DNA of 64,000 nt, from the NCBI RefSeq assembly GCF_003790525.1, contig NZ_CP033636.1; one strand, 5' to 3'. Of this stretch, positions 57,201 to 63,200 are shown one piece after another. The number at the start of each line of letters is the position of its first letter. The first letter of the stretch is position 1. The position numbers were made by a program. Origin of the DNA: Escherichia coli. Lineage in GTDB: Bacteria; Pseudomonadota; Gammaproteobacteria; Enterobacterales; Enterobacteriaceae.

Positions 57201-60200
57201 TGATTCGAAATACGTCATGGTTGACCTCTGACATTATTACAACAATCTTAAGCATTTAAATTGATGAAGGAGCTCAGGTCAGCTGACTTCGTCGTAAAAC
57301 TGCCGCAAGCGCTGGGAGGCTGCAAATTCAATTCGTGACTTCAGCAGTTTGGCGACGGCCGCAAAGACATCAACGACCACGGAGTTCCCAAACTGTCTGT
57401 AAGCCTGTGTATTGGACACAGGGATACGGAAAACACTTTCCCCGGGTTTATCGAAGCCCATTAGCCTGCTGCATTCACGTGGCGTTAGCATGCGTGGCCG
57501 ACGGTCCATGTTGTATGTGTTATGGAAATCAGTTTCTCCCAGTTCATGAGACCAGCCCCGATCAATAAGAATTTCAGATCCGTCTTTCATATAGCGGCTT
57601 GAGAGGGTTCTGGTGACACTATTAACATTGGAAGGATCTACTAGTCCAAAACCAAAACCATTGCCTTTTGCCGCATGTTTCTTTGCATAGTTGTATAAGT
57701 ACTCCCAGAGTTTAGGGGAGAGGATGTATTTACTATCTACGCTCGGATCCAGTAAATCTGAGAGAGAAGGGCGCTTGTCCGGATAAAAGTCTTTAATGTC
57801 TCTCAGAGTAAAACCGTCTTTCAGACGTAGGTCGCGGCGAAAACCAATAAGGACGATACGTTCACGGTGCTGGGGTCGGAAATGACGGCCATCGATGACT
57901 TTAGGATCATCCGCGCCCGTGCTTTCGCTGTTTGCGACGTCGTAGCCAAGCTCATCGAGCGTTTTCATGATGATGTTAAAGGTATTACCCTTATCGTGAC
58001 TCTTCAGATTTTTTACGTTTTCCAGAACAAAAATTGCAGGTTGTTTTGCCCGGATGATCCTGGCCACATCAAAGAAGAGCGTACCCTGAGTGTCGCACTC
58101 GAAACCGTGTTTGCGACCCATAGAGTTCTTTTTACTGACACCGGCGATGCTGAATGGCTGGCATGGAAATCCCGCAAGAAGAACATCATGATCCGGGATA
58201 GAGGCATCGATAAATTTGTATGCCTCGTCATCAGTAACCTCGGGCCGGTTGCTAAGAGTGATGTCACGGATGTCTGAATTGAAGCGGTGCTCGTTCTCAT
58301 CGCAATACCAGTTCGCCCGGTAAGTACGGCTGGAATAAGTATTCCATTCGCTCGTGAAAAGACATTTACCACCGATGGCATCAAATCCGCTTCGCAGTCC
58401 ACCTATCCCTGCAAACAGATCGATAAAGCTAAAGTGCCTGTCCTCATAATCAGCAGGTCGTGAAGGTATTAAAGTCTGTAGATAGCGTCCATCTGCGATA
58501 CTCAGCTCACAATGCTCAGGTATGCATGTAACCTGACGTTTAAGGGATGCACGGGACCAATTACTGCCATTTTCATCATTTAATACCTGAGCCAGATATT
58601 TCAGGTCATAAATGGTCGAAGCTGTTAACAAAGTTTTGTGGATCAGAGATGGTGTTTTATCCACATCATTCAGGTCTGTCTCAAGATCATGAGTGTAACG
58701 TTTCATCCAAACTCTCTCAGGAATAATATCTTTGAGATAGATTAACACGCTTAATTTGGATTATTTTTTGGTTCAGGTTCTAAATTTATTGTGATTATTC
58801 TGCCTTTAAGTTGCAAAAAGATTGGTTTTAAGCCCGCCCATGAAATAATGACTTGTTAAAATACTGCCTGTAAATAGGCTTGTGGATACATGTCTGTACT
58901 CAACAAATCAAGGTGAAATGATGTTTTTTTTAACAAAGTTACTTTTGCCCATCATGATTGTTGTATTCCCAGTGGCGTCCTGGGGGAACTCAACAACTTT
59001 TGAGGCAAAGGTGGTTAAGATTGTTGACGGTGACACCATAACTGCGTTGGATGCTCAAAACACAACCATCAAAATACGGATGTATGGTATAGACGCTCCT
59101 GAATCTAAACAGGCTTTTGGCCAAAAAGCAAAACAGGCCTTAACCACAGCTATAGCAACTAAAATCGTTACCGTGATAGACCATGGTACGGATATCTATG
59201 GCCGTATGTTAGGTACCATCTGGTTAGATGGATATGATATCAATGCCTCTATGGTGGACAGTGGATATGCGTGGGTTTATCGGTTCGAAGATAACGCCAT
59301 TGTCCCTGGCTATATCAAATATGAATCCGCAGCACAAAAGGAGGCAAAAGGGTTATGGGCAGACACCAACCCTGTCCCACCATGGCAGTGGAGACAGGCA
59401 AACGAAAAGCCCAGAAAGGTGAAAGAGAAGAAATAACCATGATGAAAGAGCCTCATCCGTTACTTCAGTTGGTACTAAACGATTCCGGTCGTCTAACCAT
59501 GCCTGTTTATTATAGAGATCAACAGTATTGCCCGACTTGCCTTACAAAGGTGTTGAAGAGTGAGGATGGAAGTTTGGCGCACCTCGGGGAAATAAATCAA
59601 AATACATGTAGACCTTCTATTTCAGTAGTTGTGACAAAAGCAATTATTGAAATGTTATGTGACGGGGAAAAAATATATGTAAATCCAATACGACACCGAG
59701 GCCGGGTGCTGGCACCCTCAGTAATTTTTTCTCCCGACACTCACACTTTCAAACCGTTTATAAATACAGACTATCAGCCTGTGGGAGCAAACTGGAAAAG
59801 TGAAAAGGGATATAAACTCGGTCTGTTTTATCTCAAAGATCGAGCCAACTCTATCAATAAAGAGGAATTTGATTTCATTGCCGTTATAGACCCTGAGGCA
59901 ATGCAGAAAGAATTTATTTCGGCCTGGTCTGAGGTTGATGAAAAAAATCCATTGGAAACGCTGAAGCAGATCTTACGATCTAAAAACAACTCTTCTTTAT
60001 GGGTAAAATGGCCTGGCAAAATTGAGCATGCGCAAAAAGGAAATTACAACGAAAATTACTGGTTCGATTATCAATCTGATAATCAGGAAGTGAACTGTAC
60101 GGTCTCTGTTGTAGGTATCGAAGGTAACAGTTCCGGTGAGACAATTTATAGATTGCAAACTTTGCTAAAGCGTAAGCTCAATGAATATCAACTGGTTCGG

Positions 60201-63200
60201 TCTTTAGGAACTATTATGCTTCTTGATAATACCGGGAATATGATTCCATCAAACCATCCTTATTTTGAAGTCATCTCAAAAGCATGTATAAATGGAGTGC
60301 GTGACTTTGTTCGTCAAAACCCGTGGGTAGTCTGACGGTCAACTATAAAGCATAATATAATTAGTAATAACAAGGAACAGACATGAATGAAAACTCAGTA
60401 ATCTTAATAAGTTTATTTTGGTTTTTTTTGGGATCGAGTGTTGTAGCTGGTTTTATGGATGCATCATTATATTGCTGGATTTTTGCAGCCATAAGCGCAT
60501 TGTTTCTTCTTTCGGTGATACAAACACCAAAGGAGTTAACGGTATCTATTAGTCATATGACAAGCAAAACGCTGATCTCAAAGACAGATGATGGATACAC
60601 ATTTAGCATTTCACCTTACGGAGACGGGTACCGCTTATCAGTCTCGCCTGAAAATCGTCACAATGGTACCCAAAGCTTTGACGGCTGGTTCCCACGTTTT
60701 TTTTCCGAACCACAGTATGCCAAATCATCTTTAACTAAATTTCTCGGTGAGTCCTTAGTATGGGAAGAAGATTCAAGTAATGCTCTATGAGATTACTTAT
60801 TATAAATTTTTCTATTAATCTCCATGGAGTGATATATGAATTTGGCCTATTTTTTATTTTTGTCTATAACTGTTATGCTTACGAGCTTTATTATTAAATC
60901 ACTTGTCGTATTGGTAAAGTTCAAATTACTTCGTGATGAACGTCTCGAATATACCAGCAATAAAAATATTGATGAGATGTACGATTTAATGAATGCGAAG
61001 GAAGAAATCCTCATAAGGCATCATAAGCAGATGTTGGCATTGCATCTTTCACTATTAATATTCGTTCTATTTATTGCTTACATTTACTAAAAATAATTTT
61101 ATTCAACATTTCAACAAAGGGTTTTCAATGGAAAGCTTCGAAACTGAACAAATGATTCAATATGCTTTCTACATAAATATCGTAATAACGACTGGTTTGG
61201 CATGGTTTTGCTTGCGGTCAGGATTGCATTACAATTTTTTCAGAAAAGCAGAGAGTGCCAGAACAAAAGGGCTGAGTAGTACCTCTACTGAACACGGTCC
61301 AGCAATAGTGAGACTAAAGAAGCTACAAGCATTAGTAGATTTTATTAGTAACTGTGCTTTTCTAATCCTTTCAATTGGCACAGCTTATATTTTGTATGTT
61401 TGGAGCCACAGTTAACTCATACGAGGTAACTTCGGCAGGTAACAACTTCTAATGCAGGACTTTAATAACTCTAAGGGATTCTACATGAAAAAAGACGATC
61501 TAATTACGCGTTGTAAATTACTTAAAGGCGAACGCGATGAGTCTATCTTTACCATATTAATTGGGATAGTAGTAAAGCTGGGGCTGGTAGGCCTGGCATT
61601 CTATCTGTTGCTTGGTTCCACGATTGATTGGTCAAGCTGGAAAACTTATGCCGCCATGTTGATCTTGGGAGCATTTCTCTAAAATCTTGAACCTTTTTTC
61701 ACTCATTACAAGCCATGACCTAGTGCGTAGATCATACGATCTTTAAACCTTATGTCATTGATTTATAAGTACATATAACAAAGATTATGTTAAATACTGT
61801 ATGTATGTACAGCATCAACAGTTGCCCCCCTCATATTGAGGTAATTGCTACATTCATACCACTATTCTTCTTATAGTATCGACATCCTGAATTATTGCAC
61901 CCTACTGCTTTGTCTTTAGCTGTTCCGAATTAAAATTCATTGCTCAATTTGGATCACATGACGATCAGCGTATTCCTTTGCTTTATCAAAGTTAAGTTTT
62001 TAAAACATAAGATATGTAATGACAAATTCTCAATCTGATTTTCCTTTGAACGATCAAAATTTTCAGGCAGATTTGCTGAAAATCAAAAAGGTTTTCGCCG
62101 ACCTTATAACGCAGGCATCAGATGGTAAGATACCCATAAGGTCTTCTCATGTACACGGCTTACACCATTTCGAGGAGCTCTACATCCGGGCAAGAGCAGG
62201 CATGTGTTCGGTCCTGGGATATCCGGTCATGGTTGTTTCAACTATCTCAGTTAAAGAGCCCGGCACAGGCATTTTTAGAGCGCTTCTTGCAGAATTGAAA
62301 TGTATTGCAGATGAACAAAATTACATTTTGAAAATTGAAAATGTACTGCCTCCCCTATTCCGCAAATACCTTATTCAAGAAGGTTTTGTTTTCCCAGGTG
62401 AACCTTGGATGTGTGGTTCCGGCTATTGGTTTAAGAACCCACAAGTACTTCATGAAAATATTGAGTTATTATCTGTTTAAGTCGATCTAACAATTTCACT
62501 GGAGCTAACATGTCCCCGGAATTGGTATCAGACATTGCAAGAGTGGCGCATGAAAAGCTACTTTCAATTTTAACGGAGTGCGGCATAGAGAAGACGGCAG
62601 GCACTTGCCTTTTTGCAAGCTATCTTGTGTGTTATTTAGCAAAAACTAAAGGTCTAGATGCTGTTGTCCGTGGGGGTAACGGTGCAGATGATGGCGGTAT
62701 ATTTATAGAGTGTGGTGGCTTTGGCCATTATTGGTGTGAGTTGAATTTCGAAGAAGTGCAATATTATATTGACATCACTTCCGAACAGTTTGGGTTTCAT
62801 CCATACATAGTGAAACTCGCCAACGATATAACAGGATGGCCTCGATATATTCCTGGTGATCAGGAAACGGTCGATAGTCATTTAGAACAATTATTACGCG
62901 ACGGCTATACAGAATAGGCTGCGTATACCCTATCGCAGCCTTTCAGGCTCTTAACCCTTGTGACCTGTTAACGGAACCACTCAGGATGACGCTGCCGATC
63001 AACTTTGATAACCTGCGAATTAAATTCAACGACATCCGCTGGAGTAAGCATTAATTCATCAGGATTTACAATAAATGGTCTTAAAACCACTTCGCCACCG
63101 TCTTCTTTTGCACCGTAGATATTAATAAGAAAGTGCAGTCGTTGATTTCCTTCAGCATTGCGTTGCCATTCTCTAAAAGTCAAAGTTTGTTTAATATAGT

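What the first reader, a model, noticed from the sequence alone, without database searches (positions are those of the whole stretch)
58918..60335. Secreted thermonuclease gene coupled to an unknown 298-aa ORF
The SNase-like ORF has a signal peptide and the next ORF starts 3 nt after its stop, suggesting co-expression. If the partner is a cognate inhibitor or accessory protein, this could be a nuclease/immunity pair or an entry-exclusion-like function.
Basis: inference. Interest (0 to 1): 0.35.

Follow-up and report, generated by a model that had tools for sequence, protein, structure and literature searches.

The report
IncHI plasmid nuclease gene with partner
This is an ordinary backbone gene pair of IncHI2 resistance plasmids: an exported staphylococcal-type nuclease followed by a translationally coupled protein of unknown function. 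The partner always follows the nuclease in its own lineage but does not behave like an obligatory nuclease antidote.

Summary
An SNase-family gene (58918-59436, all catalytic residues, Sec-type signal peptide) is followed 2 nt after its stop by a 298-aa ORF (59439-60335). The window is IncHI2 plasmid backbone; the pair is 99-100% identical in more than 1,100 sequenced plasmids.

The tight junction (-8 to +17 nt) and the gene order are kept in all 9 sampled lineages of full-length partner homologues, down to 22% identity. One of them lacks the rest of the module. Co-expression is therefore well supported, and an IncHI1 proteomics study detected the nuclease and, by gene order, its neighbour.

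The nuclease/immunity reading is not supported:
- Close SNase orthologues lack the partner.
- Divergent partner relatives lack an SNase.
- IS-disrupted partner alleles with an intact nuclease occur in plasmids from three genera.
- The partner is neutral, large and cytoplasmic.
- A recombination breakpoint sits exactly between the two genes.

My best reading is an exported nuclease plus a dispensable cytoplasmic accessory protein, possibly nucleic-acid-binding. Interest is low to moderate.

The parts
58854..58862 (+). Putative extended -10 promoter element (TGtTAAAAT) for the nuclease-partner operon
   Evidence: A TGnTAnAAT-like element aligns at the same place in the intergenic regions of 7 loci. 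This is inference from sequence; no transcript data were available. The generic scan found no promoter-like site between 58958 and 59647 on the + strand.
58918..59436 (+). SNase-family (staphylococcal/micrococcal nuclease-like) gene. Residues 1-23 (58918-58986) are a predicted Sec signal peptide.
   Evidence: Pfam PF00565 at E 3.9e-24. The alignment to staphylococcal nuclease keeps the equivalents of D21, R35, D40, E43 and R87. The signal peptide is conserved in 7 orthologues. RefSeq annotates it as 'thermonuclease family protein' WP_001572389.1.
59439..60335 (+). Partner ORF, 298 aa, of an undescribed family (RefSeq WP_000975182.1, 'hypothetical protein'); soluble and predicted cytoplasmic
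59529..59609 (+). N-terminal C31-x2-C34 ... H48 ... C57 motif of the partner (possible zinc ribbon)
   Evidence: The Cys residues are conserved in most family members, but two (P0022, P0023) have lost them. The AF2 model shows short beta-hairpins here. Zinc binding is inferred, not shown.
57279..58748 (-). Divergently transcribed orphan Dcm-type C5 cytosine methyltransferase (RefSeq start gives 57279-58706)
   Evidence: Pfam DNA_methylase at 3.8e-75. NCBIfam PRK10458 at 845.7 bits against a cut-off of 710. PADLOC orphan methyltransferase model at 3.4e-206. Conserved next to the pair in most loci.
57051..57218 (-). Conserved 55-aa ORF between DUF1173 and dcm
   Evidence: A 55-56-aa gene is called at the same place in L003-L005, L008, L014 and L022. 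No family match.
55709..57028 (-). DUF1173 protein (zinc motif plus a degenerate PD-(D/E)XK-like domain)
   Evidence: Pfam PF06666 at 4.6e-39. Family description in PMC3045609. Syntenic in most loci.
53409..55429 (+). DUF4942 gene (53409-54227) and an overlapping 401-aa coiled-coil protein gene (54224-55429); outer end of the conserved module
   Evidence: Pfam DUF4942 at 2.7e-26, plus weak coiled-coil matches only. Same order in L002-L005, L008 and L010.

Best explanation
This is a two-gene backbone operon of IncHI-type (MOBH/MPF_F) conjugative plasmids.

Gene 1 encodes a catalytically intact SNase-type, Ca2+-dependent non-specific nuclease. It is exported by the Sec pathway and acts in the periplasm or outside the cell.

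Gene 2 is translated by termination-reinitiation coupling from the same mRNA. It encodes a soluble cytoplasmic 298-aa protein of a very small, undescribed family. The protein has an N-terminal CxxC...H...C zinc-ribbon-like element and an alpha/beta core with no catalytic signature. Most likely it is a non-enzymatic accessory factor that binds nucleic acid or protein. It is not an obligatory antidote.

The pair forms one arm of a larger conserved module (DUF4942, a coiled-coil protein, DUF1173, a 55-aa ORF and an orphan Dcm methylase) that borders a variable cargo region.

Shown:
- gene structure and coupling;
- intact nuclease active site and signal peptide;
- backbone status and purifying selection;
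- dispensability of gene 2.

Inferred:
- periplasmic location of the nuclease;
- cytoplasmic location and nucleic-acid-binding role of gene 2;
- a single promoter.
For: Identity of the locus:
- 100% identical to IncHI2 plasmids, with 1,121 records at 99% or more. Typing is IncHI2A/MOBH/MPF_F.

Nuclease:
- PF00565 match and catalytic residues; signal peptides conserved.

Coupling and synteny:
- Kept in 9 of 9 full-length lineages, including L016, where dcm and DUF1173 are absent.

Real gene:
- dN/dS 0.19.
- In IncHI1, the 'nuclease' and the adjacent 'hypothetical protein' are core-genome genes, each detected by mass spectrometry in all four plasmids studied (PMC5390554 Table S3).

Not an antidote:
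- See (SNase without partner; partner relatives without SNase; natural knockouts with an intact SNase; breakpoint at the junction).

Non-enzymatic binder:
- No acidic or catalytic motif is conserved across the family. Only P93, W119, S121, G124, W188, E234, L261 and C283 are invariant.
- In related plasmids the slot after the SNase holds H-NS or HU.
- Divergent partner relatives follow H-NS or ParAB.
- A rhizobial plasmid has a thermonuclease gene reported in an operon with a neighbouring WGR-domain gene (PMC13055273).
Against: - The partner's pI is neutral rather than basic.
- Two family members have lost the Cys motif.
- The perfect adjacency within the full-length subfamily still hints at a more specific functional tie to the nuclease than 'accessory factor' conveys.
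- Cytoplasmic micrococcal nuclease is toxic to E. coli when Ca2+ is supplied (PMC4761138), so a pre-export safeguard is not absurd.
- No transcript mapping, localisation or activity data exist for this locus.
Confidence: 0.45

Rival explanations
1. Nuclease/immunity pair. The partner binds the nuclease precursor in the cytoplasm and inhibits it until export, as barstar does for barnase or NuiA for NucA.
For: - Conserved translational coupling and 9 of 9 adjacency in the full-length subfamily.
- The partner is the fastest-evolving gene of the module: 22-52% identity against 48-74% for the SNase.
- Cytoplasmic micrococcal nuclease is toxic in E. coli with Ca2+ (PMC4761138).
Against: - SNase orthologues (50% and 38% identity) have no partner or remnant. 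More than 5,000 plasmids carry an SNase, against 1,555 with the partner.
- Partner::IS1203 with an identical SNase occurs in 5 complete plasmids from three genera. A truncated allele, P0005, has 144 member sequences with an intact SNase.
- Core-domain relatives occur without an SNase.
- SNase is 97-99% identical while the partner is about 80% identical between L002 and L022, so partner alleles are swapped against one nuclease.
- The partner is neutral and 298 aa long, with no match to inhibitor families.
Confidence: 0.15
2. No functional link. The partner is an independent backbone gene that merely shares a transcript with the nuclease, because both sit at the edge of the conserved module next to a cargo hot-spot.
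For: - A recombination breakpoint lies exactly at the gene junction, and all homology is lost just after the partner.
- Each gene occurs without the other in related plasmids.
- The partner is dispensable.
Against: - The adjacency survives in L016, where the rest of the module is missing, and down to 22-27% partner identity.
- Overlapping stop and start codons (-4, -8) are maintained.
- Such persistence is unusual for unrelated neighbours on mosaic mobile elements.
Confidence: 0.25
3. Establishment or anti-defence module. Together with the orphan Dcm methylase, the pair acts early after transfer or against competing incoming DNA. The nuclease would form a periplasmic barrier to foreign DNA, and the partner would be an effector or regulator. 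This includes an entry-exclusion-like effect.
For: - An orphan methylase is transcribed divergently from the same intergenic region.
- pLS20-family plasmids list C5/N6 methylases and SNase-like thermonucleases among putative establishment genes (PMC8708921).
- Defence systems (Thoeris, CBASS-like, a PLD nuclease) sit just downstream in related elements.
Against: - No PADLOC match for the partner, and only a generic SNase-domain match for the nuclease.
- The partner has no membrane anchor.
- From my own knowledge, not tested here: IncHI entry exclusion is assigned to EexA/EexB in the Tra2 region.
- The position relative to oriT was not determined.
- No experimental data.
Confidence: 0.1

Closest known systems
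Staphylococcal (micrococcal) nuclease Nuc, and SNase homologues of Gram-negative bacteria such as Haemophilus influenzae Nuc (PMC5944969)
   Same: Same Pfam family (PF00565) and the same catalytic Asp/Arg/Asp/Glu/Arg set. Exported via an N-terminal signal peptide. Small (about 150 aa mature) and basic.
   Different: About 30% identity only. Plasmid-borne, and followed by a dedicated coupled partner gene. Activity and Ca2+ dependence were not measured.
Other plasmid-borne SNase genes: IncC and Klebsiella IncHI1B/FIB 'thermonuclease family protein', pLS20-family establishment-region SNase, RP4 ParB (the last from my own knowledge)
   Same: SNase-family gene in the backbone of large conjugative plasmids, often near methylases or nucleoid-associated proteins.
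   Different: Those have no homologue of the 298-aa partner. The next gene is H-NS, HU or something unrelated.
pLPU83a (Rhizobium) thermonuclease-WGR gene pair (PMC13055273)
   Same: A plasmid thermonuclease gene described as in an operon with a neighbouring hypothetical protein, suspected to bind DNA and co-regulated with transfer genes. Function unknown.
   Different: That partner carries a WGR domain, which is unrelated in sequence to the partner here. It sits next to traG, not next to dcm.
Secreted-nuclease/inhibitor pairs: barnase-barstar, Anabaena NucA-NuiA, colicin DNase-Im (from my own knowledge)
   Same: An exported or toxic nuclease gene adjacent to a cytoplasmic protein gene, and co-expressed with it.
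   Different: Known inhibitors are small (about 85-135 aa) and acidic, and cannot be lost while the nuclease is intact. This partner is 298 aa with pI 7. It is lost or disrupted in nature with the nuclease intact, and it shows no sequence or fold similarity to these inhibitors.
DUF1173 (the neighbouring gene's family; PMC3045609)
   Same: Both have an N-terminal Cys/His motif. Both may have a restriction-endonuclease-like core without catalytic residues.
   Different: Profile-profile comparison gives probability 0.35%, E 0.17. The Cys spacing also differs. No relationship can be claimed.

Membership tests
SNase / thermonuclease family (PF00565) | Profile match above the curated threshold | tested here: met
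   85.6 bits against a gathering cut-off of 21, full-length domain 1-107/107.
SNase / thermonuclease family (PF00565) | Catalytic and Ca2+-binding residues (staphylococcal D21, R35, D40, E43, R87) | tested here: met
   The alignment to 4j1m/3mhb shows DGDT, R in 'KIRMYGIDAPE', D and E in 'IDAPE', and 'YGR' all conserved. T41 is Ala, but T41 is a backbone ligand.
SNase / thermonuclease family (PF00565) | Ca2+-dependent DNase/RNase activity | not testable with these tools
   Needs an enzyme assay.
Sec-exported protein | N-terminal positively charged n-region, hydrophobic h-region, and small residues at -3/-1 | tested here: met
   K7; LLLPIMIVVFPVA; S-W-G before N24. Six orthologues have AxA-type sites at the aligned position. 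No dedicated predictor was available.
Nuclease-immunity (inhibitor) pair | The nuclease is not found without its cognate partner | tested here: not met
   The 50%-identity and 38%-identity SNase orthologues lack it, with no remnant.
Nuclease-immunity (inhibitor) pair | The partner cannot be lost while the nuclease is intact | tested here: not met
   Partner::IS1203 with an identical SNase in 5 complete plasmids of 3 genera. C-terminally truncated allele with an intact SNase.
Nuclease-immunity (inhibitor) pair | Sequence or fold similarity of the partner to a known inhibitor family | tested here: not met
Nuclease-immunity (inhibitor) pair | Direct binding to and inhibition of the nuclease | not tested
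Needs a complex prediction or biochemistry.
Entry/surface exclusion protein | Membrane anchor or lipoprotein signal | tested here: not met
   The partner's maximum KD19 is 1.16, and it has no signal peptide or lipobox.
PD-(D/E)XK (restriction-endonuclease-like) superfamily, for the partner | Fold similarity | tested here: inconclusive
PD-(D/E)XK (restriction-endonuclease-like) superfamily, for the partner | Conserved D...(D/E)xK catalytic motif | tested here: not met
   No such motif is among the invariant or near-invariant columns of the 23-sequence family alignment.
DUF1173 (PF06666), for the partner | Detectable profile similarity | tested here: not met
   hhalign probability 0.35%, E 0.17. 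No Pfam hit.
IncHI plasmid backbone (core) gene | Present and syntenic in both IncHI2 and IncHI1 plasmids | tested here: met
   1,118 IncHI2-type records hold the whole 1.7-kb pair. The IncHI1A plasmid has the same order at 52% partner identity. The IncHI1 core-genome list contains nuclease, neighbouring hypothetical and methylase as consecutive genes.

The most novel reading that the evidence does not exclude
The 298-aa protein founds a new family that works specifically with exported SNase-type nucleases of MOBH plasmids. It might be a new kind of large, non-acidic pre-export inhibitor or chaperone, or a cytoplasmic sensor or regulator that couples nuclease production to plasmid DNA status. 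Its fold (zinc ribbon plus a degenerate endonuclease-like core plus a SpoVG-like C-terminal domain) would be new.
Probability: 0.15. Interest if true: 0.55.

Novelty: new member of a known kind. Interest (0 to 1): 0.27.

Why it matters
IncHI1 and IncHI2 plasmids carry typhoid multidrug resistance, mcr-1 and many ESBL genes. Much of their backbone is still 'hypothetical'.

This work shows that the nuclease-partner pair is a conserved, expressed but dispensable unit next to a cargo and defence hot-spot. That tidies the annotation and removes a tempting toxin-immunity reading.

If the partner did turn out to control an exported nuclease, it would add a new protein family to plasmid biology. It might also explain why so many conjugative plasmids carry SNase genes. 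On present evidence, this is ordinary backbone.

Tried and rejected
- Sequence-family searches of the partner (Pfam, NCBIfam, PADLOC, PHROGs, PDB profile search): nothing.
- Idea that the partner is a diverged paralogue of the neighbouring DUF1173 (both have Cys/His motifs): hhalign probability 0.35%, rejected.
- Idea that Dcm plus a nuclease form a restriction-modification system: rejected for the SNase, which is exported and non-specific. Left open for DUF1173.
- The charge test for a DNA-mimic inhibitor or a basic DNA binder was uninformative. Family pI ranges from 4.8 to 8.6, and the window protein is 7.0.
- Rfam scan of 55000-64000: no RNA family.
- Repeat scan of the promoter region: only short, weak repeats.
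- The literature searches found no functional study of this gene pair. The 'EcnA' NCBIfam name could not be traced, and the match was far below its cut-off anyway (68 against 180 bits).
- My initial argument that a cytoplasmic SNase would be harmless was withdrawn after PMC4761138.
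Full report
**What is in the sequence.** Two same-strand ORFs occupy 58918-60335. 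The first (58918-59436, 172 aa; RefSeq starts at the second ATG, 58921) is a full-length match to Pfam SNase PF00565 (E 3.9e-24). Aligned to staphylococcal nuclease structures, it keeps the equivalents of D21, R35, D40, E43 and R87, so it should be an active nuclease. Its first 23 residues (MMFFLTKLLLPIMIVVFPVASWG) form the only strongly hydrophobic segment. They align with canonical signal peptides ending in AxA-type sites in six orthologues. Export is therefore a well-founded inference, although no dedicated predictor was available. The stop TAA ends at 59436 and the next ORF starts at ATG 59439. It runs to 60335 (298 aa). The same frame is open upstream to 59355, so some gene callers give 317-326 aa. 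However, 23 homologues all begin M-x(3)-HPLL, which fixes the start at 59439.

**Where the window comes from.** The 1.7-kb stretch is 100% identical to IncHI2 plasmids of E. coli and Salmonella, and 99% or more identical in 1,121 PLSDB records. These are typed IncHI2A / MOBH / MPF_F. RefSeq calls the two genes 'thermonuclease family protein' (WP_001572389.1) and 'hypothetical protein' (WP_000975182.1). Upstream lie the multiresistance region (IS26, Tn3) and then a conserved block:
- DUF4942 (53409-54227);
- a 401-aa coiled-coil protein (54224-55429);
- DUF1173 on the minus strand (55709-57028);
- a 55-aa ORF (57051-57218);
- a Dcm-type C5 methylase (57279-58748; NCBIfam PRK10458 at 845.7 bits against a cut-off of 710).

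The methylase is transcribed divergently from the nuclease.

**Is the coupling more than chance?** The partner family is tiny. A word-indexed search found 34 clusters at 90% identity, and an exhaustive profile search found 25 representatives among 1.84 billion. All are unnamed and come from Enterobacterales. I looked up the genomic context of every diverged full-length lineage I could:
- the window (IncHI2);
- P0013 (L002-L005), P0028 (L006), P0024 (L008/9), P0022 (L010/11), P0020 (L012/13), P0042 (L014), P0045 (L016);
- an IncHI1A plasmid (L022).

In 9 of 9 lineages an SNase gene lies immediately upstream on the same strand. The junctions are -8, -4, -4, +2, +5, +5, +5, +11 and +17 nt. Partner identity to the window protein falls to 22-27% in L014 and L016. 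L016 lacks dcm and DUF1173 altogether, so the pair persists independently of the larger module.

No promoter-like or terminator-like site lies between the genes. A TGnTAnAAT extended -10-like element is conserved about 55 nt upstream of the nuclease start (58854-58862).

An IncHI1 study lists 'hypothetical protein', 'nuclease' and 'DNA cytosine methylase' as consecutive core-genome genes. It detected both the nuclease and its neighbour by mass spectrometry in all four plasmids examined, each in at least one condition (PMC5390554 Table S3). Identifying that neighbour as the partner rests on gene order. The partner is under purifying selection (dN/dS 0.19 at dS 0.53). Co-expression of two real genes is thus well supported.

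**What the partner is.** It has no match in Pfam, NCBIfam, PADLOC, PHROGs or PDB sequences. It is soluble, with maximum KD19 of 1.16 and pI 7.0; the family range is 4.8-8.6. It has an N-terminal C31-x2-C34...H48...C57 motif that most members keep but two have lost. Only P93, W119, S121, G124, W188, E234, L261 and C283 are invariant across the wider family, and there is no recognisable catalytic motif.

**Testing the nuclease/immunity reading.** Six independent lines argue against an obligatory antidote.

(1) The nuclease occurs without the partner.
- A 50%-identical SNase in Klebsiella IncHI1B/FIB plasmids sits next to DUF1173 and is followed by H-NS.
- A 38%-identical SNase in IncC plasmids is followed by HU.
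- Neither locus has a partner remnant within 4 kb.
- More than 5,000 plasmids carry an SNase homologue, against 1,555 with a partner homologue.

(2) The partner's core domain occurs without a nuclease. Divergent relatives of 254-344 aa follow H-NS or ParAB, or stand alone, with no SNase within 5 kb. They occur in IncT plasmids, in a 358-kb MOBH Klebsiella plasmid and in other plasmid-like contigs.

(3) Natural knockouts exist.
- IS1203 is inserted at 59651-59655 (codon ~71 of the partner) while the SNase protein stays identical.
- The same junction is present in five complete IncHI2 plasmids from Shigella flexneri, E. coli and Salmonella.
- An allele truncated at residue 229 has 144 member sequences and an intact SNase upstream.

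(4) Between two related elements (L002 and L022), nucleotide identity is 97-99% across the SNase. It drops to about 80% exactly at the partner's start and vanishes after its stop. Partner alleles are therefore exchanged against one and the same nuclease.

(5) The predicted compartments differ.

(6) The partner is neutral and twice the size of the nuclease, whereas known inhibitors are small and acidic (that comparison is from my own knowledge).

In fairness, cytoplasmic micrococcal nuclease is toxic to E. coli when Ca2+ is supplied (PMC4761138). A pre-export safeguard is therefore conceivable. The perfect adjacency in the full-length subfamily and the partner's fast evolution fit that idea. 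I put it at about 15%.

**Best explanation.** The locus is a backbone operon. It encodes an exported, non-specific Ca2+-dependent nuclease and a translationally coupled, dispensable cytoplasmic accessory protein, most likely a non-enzymatic nucleic-acid or protein binder.

Context supports the second part only loosely. In related plasmids the position after the SNase is taken by nucleoid-associated proteins, H-NS or HU. Divergent partner relatives neighbour H-NS or ParB. A rhizobial plasmid has a thermonuclease gene described as in an operon with a neighbouring WGR-domain gene, co-regulated with transfer genes (PMC13055273). pLS20-family plasmids list methylases and SNase-like genes among putative establishment genes (PMC8708921). 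That parallels the divergent dcm-SNase arrangement here.

What the periplasmic nuclease does for the plasmid is not addressed by any data I could find. Candidates are a barrier to foreign DNA, eDNA or biofilm turnover, or DNA processing.

**Comparison and novelty.** The nuclease is a further member of the well-known SNase family and of the known habit of conjugative plasmids to carry one. The partner belongs to an undescribed family, but nothing shows an unusual mechanism. The pair is already sequenced and annotated in more than a thousand plasmids, although I found no functional study.

**Verdict.** The feature is real, the co-expression reading is right, and the immunity and entry-exclusion readings are not supported. 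It is ordinary plasmid backbone with one orphan protein, and interest is low to moderate.

Noticed in passing
window 53409-60335; L002-L005, L008, L010, L014, L022: A conserved block recurs in IncHI2 and IncHI1 plasmids and in records up to 4.8 Mb long. Its order is DUF4942, a ~400-aa coiled-coil protein, DUF1173, a 55-aa ORF and a Dcm-type methylase, then the divergent SNase and partner. Parts are mosaic: in L010, DUF1173 is 95% identical to the window but the SNase only 65%.
   Followed up: partly
just downstream of the partner: L002 8244-9691; L010 11365-12939; L006 8640-12942; L022 7980-8759: The region after the partner's stop is a variable cargo slot. Different elements hold Thoeris (ThsB_TIR plus ThsA_Macro), an S_4TM gene next to a faint SMODS match, type VI secretion genes, or a phospholipase-D-family protein. 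In the window the slot holds small predicted membrane proteins (60383-61682).
   Followed up: partly
window 59651-59655 (seen in L027 = NZ_CP012141.1 and four other plasmids): IS1203 is inserted in the partner gene at the same junction in five complete IncHI2 plasmids from Shigella, E. coli and Salmonella. The SNase stays intact. These are ready-made natural knockouts.
   Followed up: yes
window 58916-58919 (seen in L028 = NZ_CP110525.1 and NZ_CP110516.1): An IS3-family element is inserted right at the SNase start codon, separating the operon from its promoter region.
   Followed up: partly
P0034, P0033, P0018 (protein clusters): Rearranged alleles exist. One is an in-frame fusion of SNase residues 1-146 to partner residues 253-298 (P0034). 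Another is a fusion of SNase to the partner's first 51 residues (P0033). A third is a frameshifted partner ending near residue 170 (P0018).
   Followed up: partly
window 59355-59438: The partner's reading frame is open 84 nt upstream, inside the SNase gene. Automated callers therefore produce over-long 317-326-aa versions (for example P0001 and P0002).
   Followed up: yes
window 55709-58748 (-): The methylase scores above the curated cut-off of the E. coli Dcm model (PRK10458). It has no vsr or recognisable restriction gene beside it. Its fixed neighbours are a 55-aa ORF and DUF1173, a family described as a zinc motif plus a degenerate PD-(D/E)XK domain. Whether these three act together is open.
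   Followed up: no
L010 4996-5479: The dcm-SNase intergenic region is enlarged by a partial duplication. It carries a second copy of the promoter-like element and a 47-aa remnant of the SNase signal-peptide region.
   Followed up: no
window 58789-58809 and 58853-58873: A 21-nt imperfect direct repeat (TTGTnAnnATnCTGCCTnTAA, 76% identical, 64 nt apart) lies in the divergent promoter region. The second copy overlaps the putative -10 element. It could be an operator or chance.
   Followed up: no
L017 3979-5765; L018 4471-5801; L025 3986-5215; L026 3962-4819: SNase genes, partner-like genes and nucleoid-associated protein genes (H-NS, HU) keep turning up as neighbours in different pairings across large Enterobacterales plasmids (three typed MOBH, one non-mobilizable).
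   Followed up: partly
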